Origin: an uncultured Bdellovibrionales bacterium | GTDB lineage: Bacteria > Bdellovibrionota_C > UBA2361 > CAZKXU01 | Length of the DNA stretch: 64,000 nt | Reading direction: 5' to 3' | Assembly (NCBI GenBank): GCA_964556665.1 | Contig: CAZKXU010000001.1 | Span: forward strand, 36,078 to 100,077 | Shown: piece after piece, positions 33,090 to 51,650 of the stretch | Layout: every line of letters begins with the position of its first letter | Numbering within the stretch: the first letter of the stretch is position 1 | Notes under the pieces: model-generated | Told to the model about the DNA's origin: nothing | What the model saw: the letters and a program-made list of their open reading frames with translations, nothing else | The model's database searches: none | Made by a program: the position numbers and the translations under genes

Positions 33090-33360
33090 ATGGCTAATGG
33101 CTAGGAGATCGCTTATTGTTTTGTCTAATAAACCAAATCTCGGACATAAAAGTTAACAGTTAGTTGTGCTATAATTGAGTTGAAGGTGGCTTTGAAGAGA
33201 CGATAGAGGCAGTGAAAGATTAGGGGTGCAAAGTTAGATAGTATAAGTAAAGCACTGAGGACCGAAGGGATTTTAATACGTATTAGTGTTCTAGTATATA
33301 TAGGAACTAAGTTGCTGAGCATAAGCGCATAGTAGGAACTGTTGATTTTGGCTCTAAGCA

Positions 33361-33546
33361 CTAGTGCTCCTCCAAATAAGTTTTTTCACGTATAGCATCA
33401 CATCGTTGCCCCACCTTGTCACGCTTCTCAGTCGGAAAATCCTCGCAATACTCCAGTATTGCTGCGGATTTCCTCCTTCCGAGGCGTGCCAATCTGGGGC
33501 AACGCTGCGCGCTATACGTGAAAAAACTTATTTGGCGAAGCACTAG
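33361..33546. repeat. MITE-like element C2, inverted orientation relative to C1
   Basis: Reverse complement matches 4106-4292 with about 1 mismatch plus TIR tip variation. Confidence 0.85.
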
Positions 33547-33603
33547 TAGTAGGTTATAATTGGTGGCTTAGTGAACAGTTTGGTGATTACTCACTTAATA
33601 ATC

Positions 33604-36765: not shown

Positions 36766-37010
36766 AAATATATAAGACTAATAAAAATACTGAATTACAA
36801 ACTATTCTTTAGGAGGTGTAACATCCTCTTTCGATCGTTCATTTAGCTTACCTGAAGCAACAAATCTTACACTATTATAATCTTCTGATCCAATGGTTTC
36901 ACACGCCAATTGCGTTTCTAGCTGTTGTTGTAACCCCGTTAAATTTTTACCGACTAAATATATACTAGCTATCTTCGGGTAGTCACTATCTAAGAGTGGA
37001 TGGTACTAAG

Positions 37011-37119
37011 TCACTGGGACAGTTGCTGAATGCAACCTTGCGATGCTGGGACCGGGTATCTTGCCCGCAAACAAATTAGCTGCCTCTACGCTGCAGGCAA
37101 GATGACCGCTGCCCCAGGG
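37011..37119. repeat. Palindromic element family A, diverged copy 4
   Basis: CACTGGGACA...GCTGGGACCGGGTATCTTGCCCGC...GCAGGCAAGATGACCGCTGCCCCAGGGG, followed by TTTTTATT. Intergenic between the large protein gene and the M23 gene. Confidence 0.55.
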
Positions 37120-37145
37120 GCTTTTTATTGAATATACGATTAACT

Positions 37146-37658
37146 CTAGCCCTCAGCTTGCAAGGCTAATCCAGGAATAAACCGTTCCGGATCTTGAACC
37201 TCACCGTTTAGACGGATCTCGAAATGAAGGTGCGGCCCGGTTGAAATTCCAGTGCTGCCTACGGTGGCAATAATCTGTCCGGATTTAATCCGTTGTCCGG
37301 GCTTGATCTTGAATTTTTCAAGATGACCATAGTGTGAGGTCATACCGTTGGTATGCTTAATAGTGATAAAATTTCCGTATCCTTCGTAGGGATCGGCAAA
37401 GATAACTATTCCGCCTTGAATTGCTCGTACAGGTGTACCCGCAGGCGCAGCTAGATCAATGCCGTGATGATGGCGGGAAACTTTGAAAATCGGATGTTTT
37501 CGCTTGCCGTAGCCGCTCGAAACTCTTGGGCTCATTAATGGATAGACGAAGGCAGTTGACCCTCCAGTAAGGCCAAGTGGAAAAGCTAAGGCGAAGTTAC
37601 TTTCCAGCAACAGCACCAGAGCGAATAAGCTTAAAAGCATCATCCTCAGCTTGTGCAT
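37146..37658 (-). CDS. M23 (LytM) family peptidoglycan endopeptidase, secreted
   Basis: HHGIDLAAPAGTPV and HLHFEIR metal-binding motifs. Signal peptide. Confidence 0.8.
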   Translation of the reverse strand: MHKLRMMLLSLFALVLLLESNFALAFPLGLTGGSTAFVYPLMSPRVSSGYGKRKHPIFKVSRHHHGIDLAAPAGTPVRAIQGGIVIFADPYEGYGNFITIKHTNGMTSHYGHLEKFKIKPGQRIKSGQIIATVGSTGISTGPHLHFEIRLNGEVQDPERFIPGLALQAEG

Positions 37659-38643
37659 TGTATCCCTTAATTCTTAAGGCACCGGACGGACTGCTTTGTC
37701 CGTCTGTACCGAAAGCCACTACATCACTCGATACCCATGCTCGAGCACCTGTAGGTGCTAGCACTCGATACCACTCTCCCTGACGGGTTTCTATTGCCAG
37801 GCGAGTCCCCTTTGTCACAGCCATTAGTGGGGAGTTGTCTTTGCCTGGACCTGTACGAAGCTGTGCTTTGTCTACAATAATAGTAGCTATTGGCATCTCC
37901 TCTACCGGTTGGGCAACAGGCTGCTGTTTACGCTGCTGTGCCGGAGGATGCCGATTTACATTCACTGCTGCTACTGCTCCTAGCTTAGTCAAATTACTAC
38001 GATTGCGTGCTTCAAACTGTGAGGAGAGACGTTCTACTTCAGTTTCTGCCACCATAAGTCGATTACGAGTGTCATTTAACTCCCGACTGAGGCGCTGGAT
38101 CTTGGTCTTAGCCTCCTTCAATTCGCCATCTAAGATCTCCTTGCCTGACTTGAAGCTCTGAAGCTCCTTGGAGCTAGTACTTAGTGTTGTTAATGCACCT
38201 TTATGAGCAAGCTTAATCGCCTGCAGCTCATTCTTAAGACTACTGATTTCCTTCTCCTGTGATAGGGACTTAGCCTCCAGTCCTTCGAAATCAACTGTTG
38301 TAGCTTTAGAAATCTCATCAGCTGTTAGCACCTCACTTCTTGAATTCTCCTTCTTTGCGTTCTTTGACGGAGCTAGAGCAGCCATTTTTGAACTATCATC
38401 TCCTGAAATCTCATCACTTGCTATCTCGCTCTGCTCGGCCTTAATCTTTTTTAACAGTTCCTGCTCAGCAGCCATCAATTTATCTGATGTAGCATCGAGT
38501 GCATTGTCGGCTGCATTGGGATCGAGAGAAGAGAGCTTGTCTTTTATTCGCTCGATCTCACTATCAGTATCAAGTGCAAATGCAGGTGTGCTAACTGCTA
38601 TTGCAGTCACTATCAGAATTAAAAACGTACATCTTACAGCCAT
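37597..38643 (-). CDS. Secreted coiled-coil protein with C-terminal SH3b-like domain
   Basis: Signal peptide and long heptad region. C-terminal GEWYRVLAPTGARAWVSSDVV is SH3b-like. Overlaps the M23 gene by 62 bp in another frame. Confidence 0.5.
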   Translation of the reverse strand: MAVRCTFLILIVTAIAVSTPAFALDTDSEIERIKDKLSSLDPNAADNALDATSDKLMAAEQELLKKIKAEQSEIASDEISGDDSSKMAALAPSKNAKKENSRSEVLTADEISKATTVDFEGLEAKSLSQEKEISSLKNELQAIKLAHKGALTTLSTSSKELQSFKSGKEILDGELKEAKTKIQRLSRELNDTRNRLMVAETEVERLSSQFEARNRSNLTKLGAVAAVNVNRHPPAQQRKQQPVAQPVEEMPIATIIVDKAQLRTGPGKDNSPLMAVTKGTRLAIETRQGEWYRVLAPTGARAWVSSDVVAFGTDGQSSPSGALRIKGYNAQAEDDAFKLIRSGAVAGK

Positions 38644-38661
38644 AATAACTCCAAAAATATG

Positions 38662-39195
38662 CTAGGCGCTAAGTTTTTGAGGTGTCTGAGCATCAAGTTT
38701 CGCCTTCTTTTCACGCTCTTCACGCTCTGTTAATATTATCTCACGTACCTGATGAGGTGCTGAAATTCCCTCCATCGTTATCTCAATCCCAGCGACTGCT
38801 GCTGTTGCAACATCCACAGTGCCGACATTAAGAAGCCGTTGAACTAAAGATTGATCGGTCTCAACACTTCTTATGTCTTCAAATCTAATTCGGGTAATAG
38901 ACTGACGCATGCTCAATATTCCAACCCTAGCTTCGATGCCACGCGCATCTATGATATAACGCACGTCATATATCTTCAGAAGAAGATCGCATAATATGTA
39001 GAGCGGAGCTAACGTAAAGAGTGGAAGTGTTAGAAAAACTCTAGTCTGGCCTATGTCAAAAAGCTTTCCAGTTATAATGCTGTTAGGATAGTAGTGTGAA
39101 AGCAAGATGCAAGCGACACTACTAACAGCTAGGGCTATCAATCTCCCAAATTGAGAACGCCATGCTCGCGGAATTGTTACTTTGCCCTGTATCAT
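38662..39195 (-). CDS. Membrane protein with bacterial PH (bPH_2 / YdbS-T-like) domain
   Basis: Two N-terminal TM helices, then a PH-like domain. Confidence 0.5.
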   Translation of the reverse strand: MIQGKVTIPRAWRSQFGRLIALAVSSVACILLSHYYPNSIITGKLFDIGQTRVFLTLPLFTLAPLYILCDLLLKIYDVRYIIDARGIEARVGILSMRQSITRIRFEDIRSVETDQSLVQRLLNVGTVDVATAAVAGIEITMEGISAPHQVREIILTEREEREKKAKLDAQTPQKLSA

Positions 39196-39212
39196 AAAAT
39201 TCGATCTACTAA

Positions 39213-39560
39213 TTAATCCATTCCCAATATCTGCTCTATGTCATCAAGCTTTGAAGAGCCCTGCTGCTTAGGTTTTTGTTGAGGCAATTGCGAAGCTGCC
39301 TGCTTCGCCTTTAACCGCTTTATTTCGTCAGCAGTGCTTGCAACATCAAGATCCGCTTCCTCCCGGTCTAGATTTTGGAATAGGGATCCGCGTGGTGTAC
39401 TGACATTTTTGAATCTAGAATGAGTATCTCGTAGCTCAATCTTTGCTCCGGAGAAGCGTACTACTGTAAAAATGAGTGCGATTAAAATTAGAGTAACGAG
39501 ATTACGTCTCTCTGAAAAAGGAGCAATTACGTTACGTGCATTTATAAGACTCATAGGCAC
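39213..39560 (-). CDS. Small bitopic membrane protein, T4SS-associated by position
   Basis: One TM helix (LVTLILIALIFTVV). Sits in an operon with the VirB4-like gene. Confidence 0.35.
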   Translation of the reverse strand: MPMSLINARNVIAPFSERRNLVTLILIALIFTVVRFSGAKIELRDTHSRFKNVSTPRGSLFQNLDREEADLDVASTADEIKRLKAKQAASQLPQQKPKQQGSSKLDDIEQILGMD

Positions 39561-39571
39561 CTCATAAAAAT

Positions 39572-39856
39572 CTACTTCTGTTTCTTTTGCCAGCGACCCT
39601 GTCGGATTTCAACTACAGCTTCATGTGCCGGCCGGTAGTAATTTCCCTCAGGATCTAGGCCTGCTGGCACTTTTACTACATCAACTATCGGTTCTTGCCA
39701 AAGGTACGGTTGAGTCCCTTCCTTTCTCACCTCACGCACGACCGGAAGTGGAGCTGGGGCTGGAGGAGGAGGAGGCTGCTTCATACACCCAGACAAGATA
39801 GGCACAAGAACTAAACAATACTTTATTAATTTAATCATAATCTTTCCTCCGTACAA
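39572..39856 (-). CDS. Small proline-rich lipoprotein
   Basis: Lipobox ILSGC followed by PPPPPAPAP. Confidence 0.4.
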   Translation of the reverse strand: MYGGKIMIKLIKYCLVLVPILSGCMKQPPPPPAPAPLPVVREVRKEGTQPYLWQEPIVDVVKVPAGLDPEGNYYRPAHEAVVEIRQGRWQKKQK

Positions 39857-39859
39857 AAT

Positions 39860-42619
39860 CTAATTTTTATGTGATCCATTTACTGCCCCTACTGTTTGCG
39901 AAACTATGTTCGAGCTGCTCGATCCATGCTCTACACTTTCATTAGCAGCCTGTTCAGTGCGTCGTCTAGCCTCATTTTCTGTAGCGAAAGCCTGGGCGCC
40001 ATTTGGAGCAATTGCAACTACACGCTCGTATGCTTTCCAAAAATCACCGCCCATCTCCTGCTGCACATTCGCAAAGAGCTGGTTATCATCTCCGTTATTT
40101 GTGCTTGCCCAGTAGAACGCGGGTTCAAGCGGTAAAACTAATGCTGCTTCGCCTATATCGGAGATCATATAGAACTGTGACTCAACTCCTTTGACTGTTC
40201 GAAGTTTTGTAATTACATCAGCTTGTTGTTGATTTAGGTTAAAAGCCTGCTGAGTAAAGTGAAACTTACTAGGATCCTGTCGTAAGAAGATCTTGTGAGC
40301 ACTATTCTGTACTATCGCCTGACCTCCTGCGCCAACATAGAAATCCTCTCCTGACTGGGAGGCTGCAATGACAATACCTTTACGTTTACGGTAAAGTCTA
40401 AAAGCTGATTCAATAACATTCGCGGAGGTTTTACCAATAAGATCATGAGCCTCATCAAAAACAAGAACTTTCCGACAATCCAACTCCTTTGGATCGTTCA
40501 TCACATTATCTGCCCAGAGCATTGCAATTTTCAGAAATACGGTCTGTAAGGATGGATTACGGCTAAGTGCTTTTAGATCAAATACAATAAAGCGCTCTGT
40601 GAGCTTTAATGCGCCTGGACGATCAAAAAAGCGCGCATATATACCGTTTCCGTAGTAGTCGCTCATTAGCTGCGCGATCTCCTGGCGGCGCTTAGCTGAG
40701 TCTTCATTTTCATCTACCCGCTTTGGTGCGCGCATTACTGCTACCACATCGCTCAAGATCATTTCACGCTTCATCGGACCGTTACGATACAGTCTATGTG
40801 CTTCGATTAGGGAGGATATTACCTCAGTGCGTTGTAGCCGGTTTAACTTGGTTGTTGGATCTGCAGCCATGTCCAGAATAATGTCTGAACACATATCAAT
40901 TAGATCTTTATAATCCTCATCCGTGTTGTCAGGTTTTGTCTCACCCAGGCGAGCAAGGAAATTCATGGCAGGAGCCTTGGAAGGTGATGCTTCGTATATC
41001 CGTCCTCCAAATAATTTGGCAAGCTTTTCAAAGCCGCAAGGCTGGTTAACCATGCCTTTGTCGAAAACAAAGGTAATAGGCTGACGCTCAGCTTTCTGTC
41101 CATCACTCTGTGTAGAAAAATGTCCTCGGTTCAAGGCGATAAGCATATAGCAAAGAAGATAACTCTTACCGGCGCCTGATACTCCGCTAATTAGCACGTT
41201 AGGAGCAACGTTGGAATCGTACAGATCGAATCCCACTAATTCACGGTTCCATAGCTGTGGCAAAAGAAAAAGGGAGCCGCTGCTGCCGCGCCAATTACCC
41301 CAGAAAGGAAACATTCTTACAGCGCGCGAGGATTGCATAGTTGTTGTCCAACCTGCGCCATCTAGCTTTGGGTCGTAACAGCCTGGTAACGAATTGACCA
41401 TGACACCCATATCAGCAATTTCATGAATCATTCCGCGCGCACCGTTTAGCTGAGGAAACCCAGCAACTGCCTCAGCAGATGCACGTACCGCTTCATCCTC
41501 ATTTTGACAGATTAGTGTTTGATGAACTCCAACCCGTACTATTTGGGCTGCGTTTCTATATAACTCGTCTTTTGCGGCCCTAACAGAGGATATCTGAGTA
41601 TCGATTTTTTGATTCAACCTACCAAGTGCTGAAATTCTTCTAAAGCCGAGAGCAGTATCAAGTGCTTCAAGTTGCTTGACCTGCTTCTGTGTTTCATCAC
41701 GTGAATAGGTAACACTAATAATATGCTCGTACGGAGTGCTTTGAACTGGACAAAGCATTAAAGGAAAGCATTGTTTTGGTGGCTTTACCATCGATACAGA
41801 GCGATAGACTTTGCCGTCTTTTTTAAGAAATCCGGGAGCTGTATGAATTGCAGATGTATCTGAGATCTGATTAGCCAGAAGATCGTCCGCATCATAGCGT
41901 GGTACAGGTATGCTGCTTGTACGACCACGCTTGAATTTTCCTGATTTTATACTACGGCGGTTGAGTAGCGGGTAGAGAACATCAATCAGGTCTTGTCCGT
42001 CAACACGACGTGGGCGAAATCCAAGTTCGCGAAGTTTTTGAATGTGCCCCTCTATCTCTCCTCTGAATTTACCGGCATAGACAGAATACTCAGCTTTGCG
42101 ATCTTTACTTGAATCACCAAACTTGCCTAAAAAGAGAATTTTTATTGTGCGTTTAAGATCTTCAATTATTCCTCGCTTGACCCAAGGAGGATCAAAGCGA
42201 AAGGACATAAAGAGACGCATACGACGTGGGCGACGATGTAGATTTCTATGTCGCGCATCATTCCGTAGCATACGGATCCAGCGGCGCGCCATCCAGCCGG
42301 CAGGACCACTCTTTGGATATGTTGTCCAGGAGTCATATAGCAGACCTTCAATATCAAATGTATTAACCCAGTTCACCTGCACGCTAATATGAGGATTAAT
42401 AGCGTCTAATAACTCCTGTATGTCTTTACAGATTTCAAACGCGCGGGAATCGGAGGTGGCGGTAAGGAGAAGTGGCTGCAGTTCCCAAATTGACCAGATA
42501 GAGGCATCGGCATGTAAAAATACCTTCATTTCCTCGTCATATTTGGCATACGGGAGTAGCTCATTAAATAAAGCCTCATCCTCGTAAAGCCTTGCTCTGG
42601 TGATTCGTGAAATACTCAT
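39860..42619 (-). CDS. Type IV secretion ATPase, VirB4/TrbE/DotO(IcmB) family
   Basis: N-terminal ELLPYAKYDE...WELQ motif, Walker A GVSGAGKSY, Walker B VLVFDEAHDL, 919 aa. Confidence 0.85.
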   Translation of the reverse strand: MSISRITRARLYEDEALFNELLPYAKYDEEMKVFLHADASIWSIWELQPLLLTATSDSRAFEICKDIQELLDAINPHISVQVNWVNTFDIEGLLYDSWTTYPKSGPAGWMARRWIRMLRNDARHRNLHRRPRRMRLFMSFRFDPPWVKRGIIEDLKRTIKILFLGKFGDSSKDRKAEYSVYAGKFRGEIEGHIQKLRELGFRPRRVDGQDLIDVLYPLLNRRSIKSGKFKRGRTSSIPVPRYDADDLLANQISDTSAIHTAPGFLKKDGKVYRSVSMVKPPKQCFPLMLCPVQSTPYEHIISVTYSRDETQKQVKQLEALDTALGFRRISALGRLNQKIDTQISSVRAAKDELYRNAAQIVRVGVHQTLICQNEDEAVRASAEAVAGFPQLNGARGMIHEIADMGVMVNSLPGCYDPKLDGAGWTTTMQSSRAVRMFPFWGNWRGSSGSLFLLPQLWNRELVGFDLYDSNVAPNVLISGVSGAGKSYLLCYMLIALNRGHFSTQSDGQKAERQPITFVFDKGMVNQPCGFEKLAKLFGGRIYEASPSKAPAMNFLARLGETKPDNTDEDYKDLIDMCSDIILDMAADPTTKLNRLQRTEVISSLIEAHRLYRNGPMKREMILSDVVAVMRAPKRVDENEDSAKRRQEIAQLMSDYYGNGIYARFFDRPGALKLTERFIVFDLKALSRNPSLQTVFLKIAMLWADNVMNDPKELDCRKVLVFDEAHDLIGKTSANVIESAFRLYRKRKGIVIAASQSGEDFYVGAGGQAIVQNSAHKIFLRQDPSKFHFTQQAFNLNQQQADVITKLRTVKGVESQFYMISDIGEAALVLPLEPAFYWASTNNGDDNQLFANVQQEMGGDFWKAYERVVAIAPNGAQAFATENEARRRTEQAANESVEHGSSSSNIVSQTVGAVNGSHKN

Positions 42620-42627
42620 ACTAAACC

Positions 42628-43086
42628 TTAATAAGTTCTAGCCTTAGTTCCTGGCACCAAAATTCTGACAAGATGACGCTTATGATCAACCTGCACATCG
42701 ACATTTGCACGTCTTGAAATGCGCTTAGCTAAATCATCTAAGCTGCCGATGGCATCCATTGTTAGTCTTCTGTCAGCAAGTTCATATGCTACAAAACTTG
42801 AATAACGTGCGCTTGATGCGAGAATTGATGCCACCTCTTCAAGCGAGGAGTTCTCTACGCTGAGATGCAGCTCTGGCATCACAACCGGAGCCGCAGCGCG
42901 TTTAGTCTCACGTGCTGGTTTGGTATACGGCATATACTCAATTTTTACCCTACCATACACAGGCTCTGGTGGTAGCTGTTCTGTAGCTACACGATATTGG
43001 GGTATAGGCTCTGGCTCTGGCTTGGAAAAAGATGCACAACCACAGAGGCATAAACCTAATATTATGGCAGAAATCCGTGCTATCAC
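42628..43086 (-). CDS. Lipoprotein (T4SS outer-membrane/periplasmic component?)
   Basis: Lipobox LCLCGC. Overlaps the upstream gene by 4 bp. Confidence 0.45.
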   Translation of the reverse strand: MIARISAIILGLCLCGCASFSKPEPEPIPQYRVATEQLPPEPVYGRVKIEYMPYTKPARETKRAAAPVVMPELHLSVENSSLEEVASILASSARYSSFVAYELADRRLTMDAIGSLDDLAKRISRRANVDVQVDHKRHLVRILVPGTKARTY

Positions 43087-43535
43087 TGTCTTCTCCTAAC
43101 ATCATCTTCGTAAACATAAGGAAGATTTGAACCTGCACTAGCGCCAGGACCTTGCAGCTGTTTCTCAAGCTCGAATGAATCCTGTACTGCCCAACGCTCT
43201 TTTAAAACTTTAATGTAGTAATAGTGATCGGGCACTAAATCTCCGTGACTATTGACATGATCGGGTACCCACATAATTCGAACAACCGCGGGCTGCATAA
43301 CAGGGTTCGCTGGTTCCGGCTCCTGAGCGCGCCTATAGGTTGATAACTTCTCAAGTGAGGCTCGCGCTGAATCCATCTTGTCAGCCTCATTTAGTAGTGC
43401 TCGATCTGTTCTTTCACCTAGAAGTGCTTCCGGCTTTGGGGCTTCATAGAACGGATTAAGCACATTACCTGCTGAGGCGCATCCACTAAGTACTACTGCT
43501 GCTGTCCATGTAAATATTATACTACGAATCTTCAT
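43083..43535 (-). CDS. Lipoprotein (T4SS-associated)
   Basis: MKIRSIIFTWTAAVVLSGC lipobox. Start taken at the internal Met of the 43613 ORF. Confidence 0.45.
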   Translation of the reverse strand: MKIRSIIFTWTAAVVLSGCASAGNVLNPFYEAPKPEALLGERTDRALLNEADKMDSARASLEKLSTYRRAQEPEPANPVMQPAVVRIMWVPDHVNSHGDLVPDHYYYIKVLKERWAVQDSFELEKQLQGPGASAGSNLPYVYEDDVRRRQ

Positions 43536-43557
43536 AATTACCTCCAAAATTTCTATC

Positions 43558-44892: not shown

Positions 44893-44900
44893 ATGCTACC

Positions 44901-45701
44901 CTACCTTGCTGATTTAGGTTTGGTTACAATGTAAATTTTAGTCTGATGCTTTCCTGCTATCTGATGCTCAATATTGAGAGGCTTAGCAGCTAATTCCCAA
45001 TTTTGCATAGATATTGCTCTGGTACCATCAAGACGAAAAGTTGCCGGATTAATGCGCTGTACGACATCTAGGCGATTCTCCGCATCGATAATATAACCCC
45101 AAAGATTTGGTCCAATTATTAGTTTGTCAATTTTGGCTGAGAGTGTCCCGTCATCAAGCACCACCTCGCCGCGATATTTTTCGCTGATCTGATATCCTGG
45201 CACTGCTCCCTTACCGAACTCAGTTACTAAGACCATCTCGCGCATTAGGCCGCTAATCGCAGTAGGCGGGGCATATTCATAGTTTTTTTCCTTATATGCT
45301 GGATCCATCTCCTCTTTGGATAAAATCATAGATCCACGCTCATCCAAAATTCTTACTAAATTATCCCTTGGACTCTCATCGTTGGAGCGTTGTGCACGAA
45401 TCGAGTAAGAGCGACCATCTTCAAGCCGTACAATGATTGCTTCACCCTGGTCGCTGAGAGACTCTCTTGCAAAGATAATTAGATCTGAATCTTTCTTATC
45501 TAGAGAGATGGCGGAGTCTTTTCTTTTGAAGCCTCCCGAGATCTTCCCTGGGAACTCTAGCTGAGTTGGCTCTCCAGGAGTTACTCGTATAGTGACCTCC
45601 TGATTGTCGTACTGTACGTCACGAGCCAAAGCTGTGTTCGCAAGCATCAATAGACCTGAGATTACGAAGCTAAATTTTACAAATACATCTTTCCTGTTCA
45701 T
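44901..45701 (-). CDS. VirB9/DotH(IcmK)-like secreted T4SS core protein
   Basis: Signal peptide, beta-rich. Position between the VirB8-like and VirB10-like genes. Confidence 0.45.
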   Translation of the reverse strand: MNRKDVFVKFSFVISGLLMLANTALARDVQYDNQEVTIRVTPGEPTQLEFPGKISGGFKRKDSAISLDKKDSDLIIFARESLSDQGEAIIVRLEDGRSYSIRAQRSNDESPRDNLVRILDERGSMILSKEEMDPAYKEKNYEYAPPTAISGLMREMVLVTEFGKGAVPGYQISEKYRGEVVLDDGTLSAKIDKLIIGPNLWGYIIDAENRLDVVQRINPATFRLDGTRAISMQNWELAAKPLNIEHQIAGKHQTKIYIVTKPKSAR

Positions 45702-45709
45702 AAATGCCC

Positions 45710-46426
45710 CTATAAATTTCTACGTTCCATAGCCGCCTCTTTAGCGCTCTTTTCTAATTCGTTTTTAATCTCTCCCTTCTTAACATCTTTAACGCCAACA
45801 TCAGTTATTACGATTCCATATTGATTAAGGCCATTACGAGGAATCGTTGTCATAGTTATTGTGTATGTAGTTAACAAGACGGGAAGCTCTTTGCCTGCGA
45901 TTATCTTTTGACGCTCGCCGGTCATGCTTACCGTAACTTTATTGTCCTCCCGTTTAATCTGATTGAGCGTTGGATCAACCCAGAAGAGTTGTGTTCGATT
46001 AGTCCCTTCAATAGCTGAAAGTTCAGCATCGAGGATTTTAATATTAAATTCGGAAAGTAATGGCTCCACCAGCATTTTACGAGCTTCAGTAAATTGACGC
46101 TTAGCGTTATAAGGCTGATAGGTAGCGACAAAATTAATATAATCTGTCGCCATATCCATAAATTCAGTGTCCGGGATTTCACGAGCTGCATAAATCCCAG
46201 GCAGCGGTTTTTGCGGAACGTTTATTTCTACCTTTCTTGTCCACCAGGTGATGAGTGCAAAGATTAAGGCGATACATGTAGCAGGAATTTGAAGCAGTGC
46301 GATAGCTCGCCAGAACAAAGCCTGATCTTTATACGACTCCCAGATACGGATGGTATCTCCTGCAGATCTGCCATCCATAATCTCTGTCTGTTTGATAGTA
46401 TTTGCTACTGCTACTTTCATAAGCAA
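45710..46426 (-). CDS. VirB8/DotI(IcmL)-like bitopic T4SS protein
   Basis: Cytoplasmic N-terminus, single TM (LLQIPATCIALIFALITWW), periplasmic domain of about 170 aa. Confidence 0.4.
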   Translation of the reverse strand: MLMKVAVANTIKQTEIMDGRSAGDTIRIWESYKDQALFWRAIALLQIPATCIALIFALITWWTRKVEINVPQKPLPGIYAAREIPDTEFMDMATDYINFVATYQPYNAKRQFTEARKMLVEPLLSEFNIKILDAELSAIEGTNRTQLFWVDPTLNQIKREDNKVTVSMTGERQKIIAGKELPVLLTTYTITMTTIPRNGLNQYGIVITDVGVKDVKKGEIKNELEKSAKEAAMERRNL

Positions 46427-46436
46427 TTACTCATTA

Positions 46437-46823
46437 TTACGCTTGCTCAACTTCTTTAAAAATTTCATCAAGATTAAGTTGAACGTATTCTCTTGATCTC
46501 TTCATCTCTTTAATCGGTGCTCCGCTCCACAACGGCTGTAAATTTGCCGGTGAAGGAATGTTGGGTGGATTAATCCCTACAAGTACTAAACAAAAATTCA
46601 TCAGCCCGCGCTCCTCGTCTGGAAATCGACTTCGCAGTGTTGCCAGTATCGCAGTCGTGCTAATCCATATAAGTAGTAGTGCTGGCATAGCGGTCGATGT
46701 CTTCTTAAAAAAGAGTTCACTTGAGATCATGAACATGGAGAATCCTGCGGCCCATTCCCCCAACTTGGCGCCAAGCATAGTCCATGATTCATTTAGTCCC
46801 TGTATGACCTCTCCGTTATCCAT
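46437..46823 (-). CDS. Small membrane protein (IcmM/DotJ-like position)
   Basis: Two hydrophobic helices, 128 aa. Confidence 0.35.
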   Translation of the reverse strand: MDNGEVIQGLNESWTMLGAKLGEWAAGFSMFMISSELFFKKTSTAMPALLLIWISTTAILATLRSRFPDEERGLMNFCLVLVGINPPNIPSPANLQPLWSGAPIKEMKRSREYVQLNLDEIFKEVEQA

Positions 46824-46834
46824 TCATCCCTCCC

Positions 46835-47251
46835 TTATTTCTCAATCTCCTCTTTAGTGCTGGAGTCACTCTCAGAAGACTGCTTACTTCTAGTCAGCCT
46901 CTGATCTGCTTCTGTCTCATTTAATAGACGGCTATCTGCCTGAAATCTTACGCCGCTCTCACTTAAGCGTGGCTGCGGATCAAGCAGTCGCTCTAGTTCG
47001 TCGACCCGACTTAATACTGTGTTTCTCCATATACCTGCGTCTAACATCGCATCCGGATCGGCCAGCTCTCTAGCACGATCAAACTCTCTTAACGCCTCTA
47101 CAAGATGAGCCCGTGATCTGAGATAATGTCCTTTAGCTGATGCCAGCCTCTCCCCTTTAGCGTTCTCAATGCCAACACGGCGCTCTGCAGAGGCTTCCAG
47201 TAATGGTGCCAGTGCAATCGTTGCCACCAGTAAGTATGCGAATTTCTTCAT
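46835..47251 (-). CDS. Secreted periplasmic protein, first gene of the minus-strand T4SS operon
   Basis: Signal peptide MKKFAYLLVATIALAPLLEASA. Confidence 0.4.
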   Translation of the reverse strand: MKKFAYLLVATIALAPLLEASAERRVGIENAKGERLASAKGHYLRSRAHLVEALREFDRARELADPDAMLDAGIWRNTVLSRVDELERLLDPQPRLSESGVRFQADSRLLNETEADQRLTRSKQSSESDSSTKEEIEK

Positions 47252-47474
47252 AGATTACACCTATTCAATAGATATATTGCCTTCACAATAGAGCAGTCGC
47301 TCAAATTGTCAATTAACGTTATGTAAACTATAGACCTTTTTGTGATGTGATTTTTTAATAAATTTGGAGTAACCTTCTGTGGAAACTCAACATAATATAT
47401 TATGAATTTATGAGGTTGTTTTAACGCCTTAGTAAGATATTCAGTCCTTTTTACTACGGCCAAGGGTTATATTT

Positions 47475-49508
47475 GTGGGATCTCAGAGTAGTGAAGCATC
47501 ATTAAAGGAGCAGAAAGCTCTCAGTAGGCTTAAGCGCCGATATACCGGAAGTATAATTAAATTACTATTTGTCGGAGTAGTAGGCTTTATCGCTCTTGGA
47601 CTTGCTCTATCTACTATTAAGGAAGAAGAGGGAGCAGAGGGGTATCATCTCAAAGCAGATTGGTACTCTGAGTATAATGAAACACAGCGCGGATTTCAGG
47701 ATTGGTTGGAACAGCATGGAACTGTTGTTGAGTACAAGGTATTTAACACCCTCTCAGGAACGATCCTTGATACTGCGTTACTCCTAATACCTAAAAACAC
47801 CAACCGTAATCGTCTATCATTCTTTGGTAAGATTTACCTAGGAACCCATTTTGCAGCATTGCGGGTTACATTTGTCTTGTTGGCATCACTTCGTATCTGG
47901 ATCGTGCTTGCCATGGCTGGTGCAATCTGGGGGATCTGGGGGATTAAGCTACATCTTGGAAAGGATGTCCTAGGTATGACCGGCAATGGGAGGCTGTTTT
48001 ACTCCGGTATCAGGGCTGATCTTAAAAAAGTAGCAGCCAGCGGTGCGCCTGATATTCATATCACAGGACTTGCCTGTCCGCAGATGACTTCAGAGAAGGT
48101 TACAAGCGAATCCGAGTTGGTTGATTTTTTGAGGAAGCACGGAGCTCTGAATCAGACAAACTTTGCATTGGCTTCAATTATCTTAAATTCAGCTTCAATG
48201 CCTGCGCATGTAGCACCATTTGGGGAGGAGGCTCTTTTTGAAAAAAGTTTTAGTGGTGTAACGATAGTAGATAATGCACTCACCATATTAAAACATGCCT
48301 TTTCTTTGCAGGCCGAGTACATTAAAGGTGTAGCTCCGACGATTTCTGAATTAAAAGAATTAGAGAGTGTGCAGCGAATTGATCATGCTCAGTATGCAGC
48401 TCTTCTTAAAGCGGGCCTTAATCGTGTCCTTACAGCAGAAGCCAAAAAGCTCTTAGCAACAATTGACCCGGTTGTGCTTGCAACAGTAATCCTTGCATTT
48501 GAATCAGGGAAAACTATGGCTTTTCAGAATGAGGGTGGTCGCTGGCTTAGAAAATCTACATTTATTGAGCTTTGTGCTAGGTCGGTGCTGCATTCACTCC
48601 CTAGTTACGGAGATGAGTATGATTTCGATCGCAGAACATTAATAAGACGTACTCTTGTATACTCTTCGCGATCAAGCGTATTTGGTCCGGTACGGTTTGC
48701 ACTGGATCTTAGTGCAGAATGTAGAGCACTTAGACAATGGACAGAGCTGCTATTAGCAGTGCCTCATTCACTTCGCTCGGTAATAGATGACGTCGAGTTA
48801 TACGGTGTAATGTGTAAGGTTGAAGCTGCTTGGAGCCAACGGCTTTTTGCAGAGCTTGCCAGCTCCCCTCCCGAGATCTTGCAAGATGCATTTGCAGTTT
48901 CACAGAGCGGGGCTTTTTACTTTGGCATCAAGCCTATAATTAAGGAGCTGCGTGCCTCGGTAGAAGGGCGAGATTTGCGCCGTATTGAAGAGCTTGCTGC
49001 TAGAGTATCGCAAAAGCAGAGAATTTTTGAGATGTCAGCCGATCTGCAAAACGATAAGGATGAGCGCCAAGCTATACCTGCTTATCAGCGCATCATGGCA
49101 CCATTAGGACTTAAAGAGATTGAGTCACTGGCGGTAGAGCATGGGGTAACCGCAGTTGATATGAAAGATTGGCTAGCCCTACGGATAGCTCTAAATTCAT
49201 TTGGCTGGTTAGGTAGACGGGTTGGTGATTATACAATTTCCGATCCATCAGTAATTCACCTTGTTTTTAAGACTGAGAAGGCTTTGCCTGGGACAAATGA
49301 GCTAGGACTGCTGGGCCGCTCAGCCATGGTGTCGCTGCGCGGTTCTAAGCTTGAGACACGCTGGGGAAAGAATTGGAGTTCCCGATTTAATATAGCTCTA
49401 CGTACTAATATGGCGCGCAATAAAGAGGAGATGGCGCAGTTACTGCGTGGCATTGAGCCAAAGGAACGGGACGAAGAGGAGAATACTGGAGTGGTAGTAG
49501 GAGCTTAA
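47475..49508 (+). CDS. Inner-membrane protein upstream of the coupling protein (DotM/IcmP/TrbA-like position)
   Basis: N-terminal TM helices, large cytoplasmic domain. Position only. Confidence 0.4.
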   Translation: MGSQSSEASLKEQKALSRLKRRYTGSIIKLLFVGVVGFIALGLALSTIKEEEGAEGYHLKADWYSEYNETQRGFQDWLEQHGTVVEYKVFNTLSGTILDTALLLIPKNTNRNRLSFFGKIYLGTHFAALRVTFVLLASLRIWIVLAMAGAIWGIWGIKLHLGKDVLGMTGNGRLFYSGIRADLKKVAASGAPDIHITGLACPQMTSEKVTSESELVDFLRKHGALNQTNFALASIILNSASMPAHVAPFGEEALFEKSFSGVTIVDNALTILKHAFSLQAEYIKGVAPTISELKELESVQRIDHAQYAALLKAGLNRVLTAEAKKLLATIDPVVLATVILAFESGKTMAFQNEGGRWLRKSTFIELCARSVLHSLPSYGDEYDFDRRTLIRRTLVYSSRSSVFGPVRFALDLSAECRALRQWTELLLAVPHSLRSVIDDVELYGVMCKVEAAWSQRLFAELASSPPEILQDAFAVSQSGAFYFGIKPIIKELRASVEGRDLRRIEELAARVSQKQRIFEMSADLQNDKDERQAIPAYQRIMAPLGLKEIESLAVEHGVTAVDMKDWLALRIALNSFGWLGRRVGDYTISDPSVIHLVFKTEKALPGTNELGLLGRSAMVSLRGSKLETRWGKNWSSRFNIALRTNMARNKEEMAQLLRGIEPKERDEEENTGVVVGA

Positions 49509-49523
49509 TAGTAAGATTGTATT

Positions 49524-51650
49524 ATGGCACGAAACTATAGACGTTCAAATTTTAATGATCTGCGTGAAGAAGAAAGGTCGCGTGCCTTGCGTACTGGAGG
49601 TTTGGCTGCACTAGGTGGTCTGAGTCTAGCAGCAACCCCATTCTTTTCTGGATTAGATCCTAACCTGCTATTCGCCCTAGGTGCATTACCCAGTGTTGCC
49701 ATAGCCAATACTGCAAAGACATTAGCTCGCCAGTATTGGTATGAAAAAGAGAGAAAGGCGGAGTCAGTGAGACGGGATGGGCGGGAAGTATTAGGTATGC
49801 CTCCGCAGCGTAATTGCTTTGAGGATGCTCTTAAAGATGCAAGATCTCGTGGCAAGAAAGTAATTGATAAGTATCTAGTTGGCTTTGAACTTGATAGCGG
49901 AGCACCGCTATGGATTGATGAAGATGAGATCTGTACGCATGGCTGTGTCTTTGCAAAGACAGGAGTAGGTAAGACGCTTTGGCTTGAATCGCTGATTTTT
50001 CAGCAGATGGCACGCGGAAGAGCTAGCGGCTGTACCTTTATTGATGCTAAGCGTGATTCTACAACACTTGCGCATATTATACAGATGGCACTTATCACCG
50101 GTCGAATTGAGGATCTAATAGTTATTGATCCGTTTGACAGCTTGCACTGTTATAATTTTGTTATGACCCATCAAAGGGCAGATGTGAAGGCACGGAAAGT
50201 CCTACGCGCTGGACTCCCTCCAACTTCAGATCAGAGTACTACCAAACATTATGATCGTATGGCAGCCGACTCTATCTATCGTATGGTGCGTGCTATGGAG
50301 AGTTTTGGGCTCTCCTGGTCGATTCGCGATATAGCAGTTTCCTTATCGGCGTTTAATATAGCCTACCCGCACCTGCGTTCGATGCTTCACAAAATTGGAG
50401 CACGCCAAGCAATGGTTGAGCTTGGCCATCTCGCGGCGAGTTATCGTAGTCCCAAAGGAATGCTTGATACGGCAAGAATTACAGATAATTTACGTGGTAT
50501 AGCCTCTGAGCTTCACTCGATCGCAGGTAGTGAGTCCGGCAAAATCTTTTGCACTCGTTATACTGATTTAGTTCTAACTGATGCGATTTTACGCGGAAAG
50601 ATCATCTATTTTATGCTACCGCGCTTAGAAGAGGCAGAAAGTGCGGCACGCATGGTGAAGGTCTTTAGAGAGGATCTAGAAGTCTCAATCGGAGAGATAA
50701 CTTCCTCTCGAATCCATAATTTGGAGGACCCGCATCTTGTAATTATAGATGAGGGATCTTCTACTTTTGGTCCAACCTGGGCAAATCTCTTTGAGCTTGC
50801 ACGAAAAGGGCGGTTCGCACTCCTGTTTGGCGCGCAGTCAACTGGTGGATTAACCGATAGTGCAACAGGATTGAGTGAGGCCTTCTATGAACGTGTGATG
50901 GCGAATGTAAATCTCAAGGTCTTGATGCGAGTCGGAGATAATCGCACGGCGATGGAGATGACAGAGTGGATTGGAAAGGTAACAACGACAAAGAAGACCG
51001 TTGGTGCAGGAGTCTCAGTTGGAAGAATGACGAGTGATATGCGCGGCGCTTTTGACCTTGAGGCTCGTCGTATGGGCAATGAGTCACAGAATGTTAGTTT
51101 TTCTGAAGATGAAGAGGATCTGGTAAGTGCTGAAGAATTAAAGCATGAGATGAGTGCTGAGAAGGGGCTTGCTTGGTTTGATCTTGGAAATGGCAAGATA
51201 GTTAAGGGCAGATCTTTTTGGTTTAATGCAGAGCTCCCAGAGACTTGGGAAGGCAGAGAGTTTATACAGAAGTTGGAGCGGTTTGAGAACGATGAGATCG
51301 GGCTAGCTGACCTAGTAGATGAGAGAATTTTAAGAAGGGAGGAGGAGGAAACCTCCTTTGAGCTAGGTGCCCGGCCGGAGGGTGGAGGTGATTTTTCAGG
51401 AAAGCCGGTAGCGGCTTTAGCAAAGGAGAAAGACAATTCGTCTGCTGCTAAGGAGGAGGCTCCAGAGGAGGCTGGTCCATTTCGTTTGGGTATTATGCCT
51501 GGCCCAAGACGCGGTCGGGGGGTTGTAACGGCAATAAATCAAGTGGAGGAAAAAAAGATAGAGCAAAAAGTAGAGCCGGTTAAGAAGGAGGGAGGAGGGC
51601 TTAAGTTGTCGGAAAATAAAGAGAAATCAGGAGTACTGAAAAGATTATAA
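49524..51650 (+). CDS. Type IV coupling protein, VirD4/TraG/DotL(IcmO) family
   Basis: N-terminal TM helices, Walker A GCVFAKTGVGKT, FIDAKRD, Walker B HLVIIDEGSS, FGAQSTGGL. Acidic, low-complexity C-terminal tail. Confidence 0.8.
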   Translation: MARNYRRSNFNDLREEERSRALRTGGLAALGGLSLAATPFFSGLDPNLLFALGALPSVAIANTAKTLARQYWYEKERKAESVRRDGREVLGMPPQRNCFEDALKDARSRGKKVIDKYLVGFELDSGAPLWIDEDEICTHGCVFAKTGVGKTLWLESLIFQQMARGRASGCTFIDAKRDSTTLAHIIQMALITGRIEDLIVIDPFDSLHCYNFVMTHQRADVKARKVLRAGLPPTSDQSTTKHYDRMAADSIYRMVRAMESFGLSWSIRDIAVSLSAFNIAYPHLRSMLHKIGARQAMVELGHLAASYRSPKGMLDTARITDNLRGIASELHSIAGSESGKIFCTRYTDLVLTDAILRGKIIYFMLPRLEEAESAARMVKVFREDLEVSIGEITSSRIHNLEDPHLVIIDEGSSTFGPTWANLFELARKGRFALLFGAQSTGGLTDSATGLSEAFYERVMANVNLKVLMRVGDNRTAMEMTEWIGKVTTTKKTVGAGVSVGRMTSDMRGAFDLEARRMGNESQNVSFSEDEEDLVSAEELKHEMSAEKGLAWFDLGNGKIVKGRSFWFNAELPETWEGREFIQKLERFENDEIGLADLVDERILRREEEETSFELGARPEGGGDFSGKPVAALAKEKDNSSAAKEEAPEEAGPFRLGIMPGPRRGRGVVTAINQVEEKKIEQKVEPVKKEGGGLKLSENKEKSGVLKRL

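What the first reader, a model, noticed from the sequence alone, without database searches (positions are those of the whole stretch)
37146..51650. Dot/Icm-like (type IVB-like) secretion gene block with non-canonical accessory genes and no relaxase in sight
Minus-strand operon 47251->37146 in this order: secreted protein, small 2-TM protein, VirB8/DotI-like bitopic protein, VirB9/DotH-like secreted protein, VirB10/DotG-like protein, two lipoproteins, a 919-aa VirB4/DotO-like ATPase (LPY N-motif, GVSGAGKSY, VLVFDEAHDL), a small lipoprotein, a small membrane protein, a bPH-domain membrane protein, a coiled-coil/SH3 protein and an M23 peptidase. Divergent plus-strand pair: a 677-aa membrane protein and a VirD4/DotL-like coupling protein (GVGKT, IIDEGSS). 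The order (8-9-10 like genes before the VirB4-like gene; membrane protein immediately before the coupling protein) mirrors icmL-K-E...icmB and icmP-icmO of Legionella-type T4BSS / IncI MPF-I rather than the virB2-11 order. No VirB11/DotB, relaxase or oriT is seen in the window, and a 1053-aa orphan protein lies adjacent. That pattern suggests an effector-translocating rather than a conjugative system.
Basis: partly seen in the sequence, partly recalled or inferred. Interest (0 to 1): 0.7.

Follow-up and report, generated by a model that had tools for sequence, protein, structure and literature searches.

The report
Divergent F-type secretion system, Bdellovibrionota
The gene block is a real type IV secretion system, but it is a very divergent F-plasmid-type machine (not Legionella Dot/Icm-type) that sits permanently in the chromosome of an uncultured group of Bdellovibrionota. 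Its coupling ATPase is paired with a predicted single-stranded-nucleic-acid-binding protein, so it more likely moves DNA than only protein toxins.

Summary
The Dot/Icm reading is not supported. The VirB4 ATPase best matches TraC-F-type. The genes before it match TraE, TraK, TraB and TraV in F order, and the coupling protein best matches SXT-type TraD. All of these matches fall below curated cut-offs.

The whole block is conserved in the same order in about 30 metagenomic genomes, almost all labelled Bdellovibrionota. Its flanks there are different housekeeping genes. I found no relaxase, integrase or VirB11 in the window or in those flanks. Codon usage of the block equals that of the host genes. 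The TraC family is isolated: 60-70% identity inside the family, then at most about 30% to anything else.

- A VirB2-like pilin gene at 29298-29705 belongs to it. A 7.4-kb insertion, which carries the 1053-aa orphan, separates it from the operon.

The 677-aa partner is an orphan family. It resembles neither DotM nor a MOBH relaxase.

Best reading: a domesticated F-type system that exports a single-stranded nucleic acid-protein complex. Effector injection remains a serious rival. This is a new variant of a known kind.

The parts
29298..29705 (-). Pilin candidate (VirB2/TrbC-like architecture). It has a long leader ending ...VHGASA|Q, then two hydrophobic helices and a conserved C-terminal motif ...ILRSLVSTFFND.
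   Evidence: Sequence and alignment A6 (41-66% identity, 22 invariant columns). It directly follows the M23 gene in at least 11 relatives. There is no Pfam or PDB sequence hit, so the assignment rests on architecture and synteny only.
29706..37145 (.). A 7.4-kb insertion that is NOT part of the system. It carries an EamA transporter, a 136-aa ORF, a DUF4143 AAA ATPase, a long hairpin repeat and the 1053-aa orphan. It separates the pilin gene from the operon.
   Evidence: None of these genes has a counterpart in any related locus. GC3 is 0.33, against 0.38 for the T4SS and housekeeping genes.
37146..37658 (-). Secreted M23 (LytM-type) peptidoglycan endopeptidase with intact HxxxD and HxH motifs. 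It is the last gene of the operon.
   Evidence: Peptidase_M23 at 1e-36. Conserved at this position in 20 loci at 42-61% identity.
37597..38643 (-). Secreted or anchored coiled-coil protein with a C-terminal bacterial SH3 domain. It is a likely cell-wall-binding partner of the M23 enzyme.
   Evidence: SH3_3 at 1.5e-9 plus coiled-coil matches. Conserved in 21 loci, with length varying from 310 to 742 aa.
38662..39195 (-). Two-TM membrane protein with a bacterial PH (bPH_2) domain.
   Evidence: bPH_2 at 6.8e-10. Conserved in 15 loci and in L027, L029 and the place without DNA.
39213..39560 (-). Small bitopic membrane protein (115 aa). It is specific to sub-clade A; sub-clade B has a different protein of about 150-230 aa here.
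   Evidence: No family hit.
39572..39856 (-). Small proline-rich lipoprotein (94 aa, lipobox LSGC). It is duplicated in sub-clade B.
39860..42619 (-). VirB4-family ATPase of the TraC (F) type, 919 aa.
   Evidence: TraC_F_IV and P-loop_TraG. TIGR02746 at 9e-63, below cut-off. Walker motifs verified. Relatives are 60-70% identical; the next relatives are at most 28-30% identical and are also TraC-F-type.
42628..43086 (-). Lipoprotein of 152 aa, possibly with a VirB7/DotD-like N0 domain.
   Evidence: Weak P_T4SS_TraN at 3e-4. DotD hits in 4 scanned orthologues very probably belong to this family (the output does not say which members matched). No PDB sequence hit.
43083..43613 (-). TraV-like outer-membrane lipoprotein. 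The likely true start is the Met before MKIRSIIF..., with lipobox LSGC.
   Evidence: The TraV Pfam model is hit by 15 scanned members, best 4e-5.
43558..44892 (-). TraB/VirB10-like protein: an N-terminal TM segment, a Gly/Ala-rich linker and a TrbI domain.
   Evidence: TrbI at 8.8e-13. NF010289 F-type TraB at 5.5e-10.
44901..45701 (-). TraK/VirB9-like secreted protein.
   Evidence: TraK_C in 12 scanned members (best 2e-6). TraK_N at 0.016 in the window copy. Alignment A1 has 49 invariant columns.
45710..46426 (-). TraE/VirB8-like bitopic protein.
   Evidence: The TraE Pfam model is hit at 1e-3 in the window copy and by 10 scanned members (best 1e-6).
46437..46823 (-). Small membrane protein (128 aa) in the position of TraL/VirB3.
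   Evidence: Position and size only. Alignment A3. No family hit, and hhalign against an SXT-like TraL is negative.
46835..47251 (-). First gene of the operon: a secreted 138-aa protein of unknown role. It has a conserved core of about 80 aa and is 260-340 aa long in sub-clade B.
47252..47474 (.). AT-rich divergent intergenic region. The best sigma-70-like site of the region (TTGACA-16-TATTGT, 47312 to 47285, minus strand) lies upstream of the operon.
   Evidence: pattern match only, not above chance overall. Sequence. No convincing oriT-like inverted repeat.
47475..49508 (+). A 677-aa orphan membrane protein encoded immediately upstream of the coupling protein. It has N-terminal TM helices followed by a large, Arg-rich, mostly helical domain.
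49524..51650 (+). Type IV coupling protein of the TraD type.
   Evidence: TraG-D_C. TIGR03743 SXT_TraD at 3.4e-17. Walker A and B verified. Relatives are 52-79% identical.
51813..52316 (+). A 167-aa Whirly-fold protein, predicted to bind single-stranded DNA or RNA. It is the third gene of the coupling-protein operon. The mechanical ORF starts at TTG 51789.

Best explanation
This is a chromosomally fixed, lineage-specific and very divergent F-type (MPF-F-like) type IV secretion system. Its gene layout resembles that of SXT/IncA-C elements. It belongs to an uncultured clade labelled Bdellovibrionota.

Shown:
- The envelope machine is built from TraE/VirB8-, TraK/VirB9-, TraB/VirB10- and TraV-like proteins, a TraC/VirB4 ATPase and several small lipoproteins and membrane proteins.
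- A secreted M23 endopeptidase and its SH3/coiled-coil partner are encoded in the same operon.
- A divergent operon encodes the substrate-recruitment module: a 677-aa orphan membrane protein, a TraD-type coupling ATPase, and a 167-aa protein whose model has the Whirly fold of single-stranded DNA/RNA binders.

Inferred:
- The displaced gene at 29298-29705 is the VirB2-like pilin.
- The M23/SH3 pair opens the cell wall (the cell's own or the target's).
- The Whirly protein coats or delivers a single-stranded nucleic acid (most likely ssDNA) to the TraD-type ATPase, which feeds it into the channel. The system would then work like conjugation or like the gonococcal DNA-secreting F-type system.
- The nicking enzyme is either unrecognisably divergent (the 677-aa protein is a candidate by position only) or encoded elsewhere.

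Sub-claim confidence: F-type rather than Dot/Icm 0.9; native and long-resident in the chromosome rather than a mobile element 0.8; nucleic-acid substrate about 0.45.
For: F-type identity:
- TraC_F_IV and TIGR02746 (9e-63) are the best hits of the ATPase.
- TraV, TraK_C and TraE are hit by 15, 12 and 10 scanned orthologues.
- F-type TraB and TrbI match the VirB10-like protein. SXT_TraD is the best hit of the coupling protein.
- The nearest plasmid hits are all annotated traC, at 22-25% identity. The nearest database representatives are all TraC-F-type.
- The SXT/IncA-C-like plasmid pRVS1-224 has the layout traI-traD-x / traL-E-K-B-x-x-V-C.

Native status:
- The same 16-18 genes occur in the same order in 26 GTDB species genomes and 6 further contigs, on contigs up to 1.87 Mb.
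- The flanks are unrelated housekeeping genes: IspG, PurC, FlgK, Fe-hydrogenase, UDP-glucose dehydrogenase, Kup, COX15, IleRS and mqn genes. No relaxase or integrase is among them.
- GC3 of the block is 0.382 against 0.386 for housekeeping genes, and RSCU correlation is r = 0.96.
- The same TPR-UbiE-UbiX-mqn neighbourhood occurs in the window and in L034.
- The TraC family collapses to one 50%-identity cluster, with a gap down to 28-30%.

Nucleic-acid substrate:
- The Whirly fold of the T4CP operon partner, its extreme conservation, and its fixed position after the T4CP gene in both sub-clades.
- The T4CP is TraD-like. Its only close relative outside the clade lies beside a protelomerase and ParAB on a linear plasmid.
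- From my own knowledge, all characterised F-type T4SSs move DNA.
Against: - No relaxase, oriT, ParA/ParB or other DNA-processing gene was recognised in the window or near the cluster in any relative.
- The 677-aa family lacks the HD and HHH motifs, gets no TraI_2 hit, and shows hhalign probability 0.1% against a MOBH TraI.
- All F-type hits are below curated cut-offs. TraL, the pilin and a VirB6/TraG equivalent are not confirmed by homology.
- F-specific genes (TraF, H, N, U, W, TrbC, TraG) are absent from the window.
- T4SS proteins are more conserved between two genomes than the adjacent metabolic enzymes are. This could also mean transfer within the phylum rather than strict vertical descent.
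Confidence: 0.5

Rival explanations
1. Protein-effector injection. The domesticated system delivers toxins or effectors into prey or host cells on contact, in the way bacteria-killing X-T4SS or Dot/Icm systems are used. The M23 peptidase and variable neighbouring orphans would be cargo or accessory factors. The Whirly protein would be a regulator, a chaperone-like adaptor or itself an injected effector.
For: - A coupling protein without any recognisable relaxase in about 30 genomes.
- Chromosomal, lineage-wide conservation in a phylum known for predation.
- A variable slot between the M23 gene and the pilin gene holds large orphan proteins in different genomes: the 1053-aa orphan here, and other genes in L010, L012 and L026.
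- Patescibacteria provide a precedent for a relaxase-less chromosomal T4SS tied to an epibiotic lifestyle (PMC12102498).
Against: - No effector family, translocation signal, immunity gene or chaperone was recognised.
- The slot genes are not conserved, and one family looks like a polytopic membrane enzyme rather than a toxin.
- The 1053-aa orphan lies in an insertion of different composition.
- From my own knowledge, no F-type system is known to be an effector translocator.
- The Whirly-fold partner and the TraD-type T4CP fit DNA handling better.
Confidence: 0.3
2. Ordinary conjugative element. The block is the mating-pair-formation part of an ICE or integrated plasmid, and its relaxase, oriT and integrase lie outside the window.
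For: - A T4CP of conjugative TraD type and an F-type gene order.
- Only 64 kb of a 135.7-kb contig was seen.
- T4SS proteins are more similar between genomes than neighbouring enzymes are.
- One T4CP homologue is on a cyanobacterial plasmid.
Against: - The cluster is bounded on both sides by different housekeeping genes in about 30 genomes, with no integrase, relaxase, cargo or repeats.
- Codon usage is identical to that of the host genes.
- 72,556 plasmids contain no TraC above 25% identity, and no 677-aa or Whirly homologue at all.
- No pseudogenisation is seen, and the family is tight with a long stem.
Confidence: 0.08
3. Dot/Icm-like type IVB (MPF-I) effector system.
For: - The order VirB8-9-10-like genes, then VirB4-like, and a membrane protein before the coupling protein, resembles icmL-K-E...icmB and icmP-icmO.
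- There are faint DotD hits in 4 orthologues.
Against: - Every informative profile hit is F-type.
- No DotB, DotA, DotC, IcmF or similar gene is present.
- The T4CP is TraD-like, not DotL-like.
- The 677-aa model has no similarity to DotM in the PDB.
- The F-type order is equally traE-K-B-V-C.
Confidence: 0.02
4. DNA-uptake machine. The system imports DNA, for example from lysed or attached prey, as the ComB T4SS does in Helicobacter. The Whirly protein would protect incoming single strands.
For: - A chromosomal T4SS without a relaxase, plus a predicted ssDNA-binding partner.
- A nutrient or DNA-scavenging lifestyle is plausible for the phylum.
Against: - From my own knowledge, ComB-type uptake systems lack a coupling protein. 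Here the T4CP is among the most conserved components.
- No ComEC or DprA linkage was seen in the flanks.
Confidence: 0.07

Closest known systems
F-type (MPF-F) conjugation systems, especially the SXT/R391-IncA/C layout (traI-traD-x ; traL-E-K-B-V-...-traC)
   Same: - The best profile matches of VirB4, VirB10, VirB9, VirB8, the lipoprotein and the T4CP are TraC, TraB, TraK, TraE, TraV and SXT_TraD.
- The gene order is the same, and there is no VirB11.
- The T4CP is preceded by a large gene and followed by a small one.
   Different: - Only 22-28% identity to any TraC, and all hits are below curated cut-offs.
- No TraI relaxase, MobI or oriT.
- No TraF, H, N, U, W, TrbC or TraG in the window.
- Extra bPH, SH3/coiled-coil and M23 genes.
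- A VirB2/TrbC-like rather than a TraA-like pilin candidate.
- It is chromosomal and lineage-wide, not on a mobile element.
Gonococcal genetic island (GGI) F-type T4SS that secretes chromosomal ssDNA
   Same: A chromosomal F-like machine with TraD, dedicated peptidoglycan hydrolases and a single-strand-binding protein encoded alongside. The GGI encodes SsbB (own knowledge). Its relaxase is membrane-associated and carries an HD domain (PMC6736028, PMC4207684).
   Different: - The GGI is a horizontally acquired island with a recognisable MOBH TraI, ParA/ParB, oriT and the full F-specific gene set. None of these is recognisable here.
- The ssDNA binder here has a Whirly fold, not an OB fold.
Legionella/Coxiella Dot/Icm and IncI type IVB systems
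   Same: The order of the VirB8/9/10-like genes before the VirB4-like gene. A membrane protein is encoded before the coupling protein. There are faint DotD-like lipoprotein hits.
   Different: - The core proteins match F-type, not IVB, profiles.
- No DotB, DotA, DotC, IcmF, IcmS or IcmW.
- The T4CP partner has no DotM-like fold.
Lineage-wide relaxase-less chromosomal T4SS of Patescibacteria
   Same: A phylogenetically distinct T4SS that is chromosomal, widespread in an uncultured host-dependent lineage and mostly without a relaxase. It is thought to be co-opted for a lifestyle function (PMC12102498).
   Different: That system is of the monoderm MPF-FATA type. This one is a diderm F-type machine with an outer-membrane core, a T4CP and a Whirly-fold partner.
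Whirly / PUR / MRP single-stranded nucleic-acid-binding proteins
   Different: - No sequence similarity: 9-11% identity and no Pfam hit.
- This is a bacterial protein in a T4SS context, which I did not find described.
- Binding is untested.

Membership tests
Dot/Icm type IVB (MPF-I) | VirB4-like ATPase of the DotO/IcmB type | tested here: not met
   The best hits are TraC_F_IV and TIGR02746 TraC-F-type. No IVB model appears among the hits. The nearest relatives are also TraC-F-type.
Dot/Icm type IVB (MPF-I) | DotB (VirB11-like) ATPase and IVB-specific parts (DotA, DotC, DotD, IcmF, IcmS/W and others) | tested here: not met
   No such Pfam or NCBIfam hit in the window, nor in the precomputed annotation of L027-L030, L033 and L034. 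The only trace is DotD hits in 4 of 134 scanned orthologues, best E-value 3e-4.
Dot/Icm type IVB (MPF-I) | DotL coupling protein with a DotM/IcmP partner | tested here: not met
F-type (MPF-F) T4SS | TraC-type VirB4 | tested here: inconclusive
   It is the best-matching family by far (9e-63, 212 bits), but below the curated cut-off of 567 bits. Identity to plasmid TraC is 22-25%.
F-type (MPF-F) T4SS | TraL-TraE-TraK-TraB-TraV module in that order before TraC | tested here: met
   TraE, TraK_C/TraK_N, TrbI/TraB and TraV are hit weakly but recurrently across orthologues, in F order. TraL is assigned by position only (negative).
F-type (MPF-F) T4SS | F-specific assembly genes TraF, TraH, TraN, TraU, TraW, TrbC, TraG | tested here: not met
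   None is in the window. Two relatives (L028, L030) carry five extra genes. One has a weak TraG_N hit and one a faint thioredoxin-like hit.
Conjugative element (ICE or plasmid) | Relaxase (any MOB family) with oriT | tested here: not met
   No relaxase domain in the window or in the flanks of about 30 relatives. No convincing inverted repeat in the divergent intergenic region. The rest of the genome was not visible.
Conjugative element (ICE or plasmid) | Integrase or att sites, atypical composition, presence on plasmids | tested here: not met
   No integrase. Codon usage matches the host. No flanking direct repeats. No close homologue of TraC, the 677-aa protein or the Whirly protein in 72,556 plasmids.
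MOBH relaxase (for the 677-aa protein) | TraI_2 domain with the alternative 3H motif (HHH), the HD motif and conserved tyrosines | tested here: not met
Whirly/PUR-like ss-nucleic-acid binders (for the 167-aa protein) | Two b4-a repeats forming the Whirly fold | tested here: met
Whirly/PUR-like ss-nucleic-acid binders (for the 167-aa protein) | Binding of single-stranded DNA or RNA | not testable with these tools
   Needs EMSA or structural work. Some proteins of this fold (SsgA) do not bind nucleic acid.
VirB2/TrbC pilins (for 29298-29705) | Long leader peptide plus two hydrophobic helices, about 70-80 aa when mature | tested here: met
   Sequence and alignment A6.
VirB2/TrbC pilins (for 29298-29705) | Sequence-profile membership (Pfam TrbC/VirB2) | tested here: not met
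   No Pfam hit at E <= 0.01. No PDB pilin hit.

The most novel reading that the evidence does not exclude
An uncultured Bdellovibrionota clade has turned an F-type conjugation machine into a core, vertically inherited organelle. It would export or inject a single-stranded nucleic acid (DNA or even RNA) without a canonical relaxase. The substrate module would be a new one: an orphan membrane protein, a TraD-type ATPase and a Whirly-fold binder. The machine might be used during contact with prey or host cells. That could also explain why the same T4CP appears on a cyanobacterial linear plasmid.
Probability: 0.15. Interest if true: 0.85.

Novelty: new variant of a known kind. Interest (0 to 1): 0.62.

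Why it matters
F-type type IV secretion systems are known almost only as parts of mobile elements that move DNA between bacteria. A lineage-wide chromosomal F-type system would be a clear case of domestication of a conjugation machine in a phylum known for predation. Three features make the case: strong purifying selection, no recognisable relaxase, and a new trio around the coupling ATPase.

The Whirly-fold protein gives a directly testable handle on an open question: what do relaxase-less T4SSs with coupling proteins transport? The 677-aa and 167-aa families, and the very divergent TraK, TraE and TraV proteins, are also missing from current detection profiles. Such systems are therefore probably under-counted in metagenomes.

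Tried and rejected
- Profile searches of six orthologue alignments against all PDB sequences gave nothing meaningful. The alignments were the TraK-like, TraE-like, 677-aa, pilin-like, 152-aa lipoprotein and 167-aa families. Solved F, R388, pKM101 and Dot/Icm structures are therefore not detectable by sequence.
- hhalign of the TraL-, TraK- and TraE-like alignments against single SXT-like plasmid proteins was negative. That test is insensitive with one-sequence templates, so it is not counted against homology.
- NCBIfam on the five extra genes of L028 and L030 gave no TraW, TraU, TraF or TraH hit.
- A search for oriT-like inverted repeats in the divergent intergenic region and at the operon ends found nothing convincing.
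- Attempts to read beyond the window ends through exact-protein look-ups failed. One returned a 1.9-kb contig and the other was not on record.
- The 1053-aa orphan showed no relation to any protein of the related loci and no family hit. I dropped it as a system component.
- Literature searches for a T4SS in Bdellovibrionota, or a Whirly protein linked to type IV secretion, found no description.
- tRNA and Rfam scans of the window were empty.

Full report
**Observation.** The quoted motifs are present: LPY-22, GVSGAGKSY-479 and VLVFDEAHDL-718 in the 919-aa ATPase, and GVGKT-147 and IIDEGSS-407 in the 708-aa coupling protein. Pfam confirms Peptidase_M23 (1e-36), SH3_3 plus coiled coil, bPH_2, TrbI/VirB10, TraC_F_IV + P-loop_TraG, and TraG-D_C. 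Three small proteins carry lipoboxes. I scanned all window ORFs of 200 aa or more. None has a relaxase, integrase or VirB11 domain. The surroundings are chromosomal:
- UvrB, UvrC, PheT, ProS and futalosine-pathway menaquinone genes;
- OleABCD;
- a LanM lanthipeptide synthetase.

**Kind of type IV system.** The evidence points to F-type, not Dot/Icm.
- The ATPase best matches TIGR02746 TraC-F-type (9e-63). Generic VirB4 scores 7.5e-29 and the ICE/PFL type 2.8e-15.
- The VirB10-like protein best matches F-type TraB. The coupling protein best matches SXT_TraD.
- I scanned 134 orthologues taken from related loci. TraV was hit by 15 members, TraK_C by 12 (best 2e-6), TraE by 10 (best 1e-6) and DotD by only 4.
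- The nearest proteins on 72,556 plasmids are all annotated traC, at only 22-25% identity.
- The nearest full-length representatives among 1.84 billion proteins (24-28% identity) are themselves best matched by TraC-F-type.

All F-type matches are below curated cut-offs. Profiles of the TraK- and TraE-like families find no solved T4SS structure by sequence. The system is a very deep branch.

**Extent and anatomy.** Synteny across relatives redraws the borders.
- A 135-aa gene at 29298-29705(-) follows the M23 gene in at least 11 relatives. It has a long leader ending VHGASA|Q, two hydrophobic helices and a conserved ...ILRSLVSTFFND tail. That is the architecture of VirB2/TrbC pilins, although no profile confirms it.
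- In this window a 7.4-kb insertion separates that gene from the operon. The insertion carries an EamA transporter, a DUF4143 ATPase, a hairpin repeat and the 1053-aa orphan. No relative has it, and its GC3 is lower (0.33 against 0.38). The orphan is not a component of the system.
- On the other side, a 167-aa gene (51813-52316) directly follows the coupling-protein gene here and in L013, L028, L030, L033, L034 and the H6619 genome.

The conserved unit is therefore two divergent operons plus a pilin gene:
- 138 aa / TraL-position / TraE / TraK / TraB / TraV / 152-aa lipoprotein / TraC / 94-aa lipoprotein / 115 aa / bPH / coiled-coil-SH3 / M23;
- 677 aa / T4CP / 167 aa.

**Distribution and inheritance.**
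- TraC has more than 120 listed homologues at 65-70% identity.
- A scan of one genome per GTDB species returned 26 loci. Almost all are labelled Bdellovibrionota or Bdellovibrionales, on contigs up to 1.87 Mb.
- The flanks differ from genome to genome and are housekeeping genes: IspG, PurC, FlgK, Fe-hydrogenase, a TonB receptor, UDP-glucose dehydrogenase, Kup, COX15 and IleRS. No relaxase or integrase is among them.
- Codon usage of the block equals that of the housekeeping genes in the window (GC3 0.382 against 0.386, r = 0.96).
- In HKST-UBA19 (L034) the cluster abuts the same TPR-UbiE-UbiX-mqn genes that lie at 7-14 kb in this window.
- In a library clustered at 50% identity the whole TraC family is one cluster. 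The next relatives are at 28-30% or less.

Together this argues for a long-resident, lineage-specific system rather than a mobile element. There is one caveat. Between the window genome and L034, the T4SS proteins (TraC 62%, T4CP 59%, 167-aa protein 70%) are more similar than the adjacent menaquinone enzymes (25-57%). That means either strong constraint or some transfer within the phylum.

**The substrate module.**
- The 677-aa protein has no family, PDB-sequence or plasmid match and only 18 homologues. Its AlphaFold model (pLDDT 78) shows N-terminal membrane helices and a large Arg-rich helical domain.
- MOBH relaxases of F-type systems carry an HD motif and sit beside traD (PMC6736028), so I tested that idea. 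There is no TraI_2 or HD profile hit in 15 members, hhalign probability is 0.1%, and there is no conserved HD, HHH or HxH. Membership is rejected. A functional analogy remains possible on position alone.
- The 167-aa protein is the most conserved component: 609 homologues at 63-77% identity and 66 invariant columns.

**Mechanism.**
Shown: an F-type envelope machine with a TraD-type coupling ATPase, a dedicated M23/SH3 wall-remodelling pair, and a Whirly-fold operon partner.

Inferred: the Whirly protein binds a single-stranded nucleic acid and hands it to the ATPase for export. That would be conjugation-like transfer, or DNA secretion as in the gonococcal island (PMC4207684, PMC6736028). The nickase is unidentified.

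The main rival is protein-effector injection into prey or host cells. The missing relaxase and the Patescibacteria precedent (PMC12102498) support it, but no effector or signal was found. An ordinary ICE, a Dot/Icm system and a ComB-like uptake system are less likely, for the reasons listed under the rival explanations.

**Novelty.** I found no description of this system in the searchable literature. It is a new variant of a known kind. It is an F-type T4SS in ancestry and core, but it differs in four ways:
- it is fixed in the chromosome;
- it lacks the F-specific assembly genes in this window;
- it carries bPH, SH3 and M23 accessories;
- its coupling module contains two families not previously linked to type IV secretion.

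**Limits.**
- The organism label comes from related MAGs, not from the window itself.
- Only 64 kb of the contig was visible.
- The fold assignments are predictions.
- The TraL, pilin and VirB6 roles are not confirmed by homology.

Noticed in passing
window 33360-33547 and 4117-4280: A hairpin element of about 190 nt with nested, near-perfect arms (RNA fold -123.7 kcal/mol, z = -18). It occurs twice in the window: once inside the insertion that splits the T4SS, and once between a small ORF and the ProS gene. It looks like a dispersed palindromic (MITE/REP-like) repeat. There is no Rfam match.
   Followed up: partly
window 29898-30083: Three copies of a 36-nt unit containing TACCCACAC: one inverted and two in tandem. 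The 9-mer is found 3 times against 0.17 expected. They lie in the intergenic region upstream of the pilin-like gene and the EamA gene, which suggests an operator-like arrangement.
   Followed up: partly
L035:14863-16932 (Leptolyngbya boryana linear plasmid pLBX, NZ_AP014640.1 352855-354924): An orphan homologue of the coupling protein, 59-61% identical. It sits beside a protelomerase gene and ParA/ParB, with no other T4SS gene nearby. It is as distant from all Bdellovibrionota T4CPs as their two sub-clades are from each other.
   Followed up: partly
L028:3615-9718 and L030:3481-9695: Two relatives carry five extra genes (about 210, 355, 270, 470 and 685 aa) between the 677-aa gene and the tra operon. 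The largest has a weak TraG_N hit and the roughly 270-aa one a faint thioredoxin-like hit. Their sizes recall TraW, TraU, TraF, TraH and TraG. They are absent from the window and the other loci.
   Followed up: partly
L034:8512-14152 versus window 6991-13827: The same TPR-UbiE-UbiX-mqn gene set neighbours the T4SS in a sub-clade B genome. These enzymes are only 25-57% identical between the two genomes, which is less than TraC, the T4CP and the Whirly protein (59-70%).
   Followed up: yes
L009, L010, L012, L015, L018 (for example L012:17311-20369): In sub-clade B, one or two polytopic membrane proteins of about 510 aa with no family hit lie next to the pilin gene or in the variable slot between the M23 and pilin genes. 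In the L002-L005/L022 group, a 680-790-aa protein with a kinase-like N-terminus follows the pilin gene.
   Followed up: partly
window 52313-56395 and 61164-62727: Two RiPP loci flank the system. One is a LanM class II lanthipeptide synthetase (TIGR03897, 1.6e-203) with a possible nitrile-hydratase-leader-type precursor ORF nearby. The other is an MbnB/TglH-type enzyme with a DUF2063 (HvfC-like) partner. LanM has lower GC3 (0.30) than the host genes.
   Followed up: no
window 20885-25528: An olefin-synthesis gene set: an OleA-like thiolase, a fused OleB-OleC (alpha/beta hydrolase + AMP-binding) protein and an OleD-like reductase.
   Followed up: no
window 27431-29011: A 526-aa ORF with an extremely acidic Pro/Ala/Glu/Val-rich C-terminal half, in the only GC-rich stretch of the window (51%). 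It has no family hit and no counterpart next to the T4SS in relatives.
   Followed up: no
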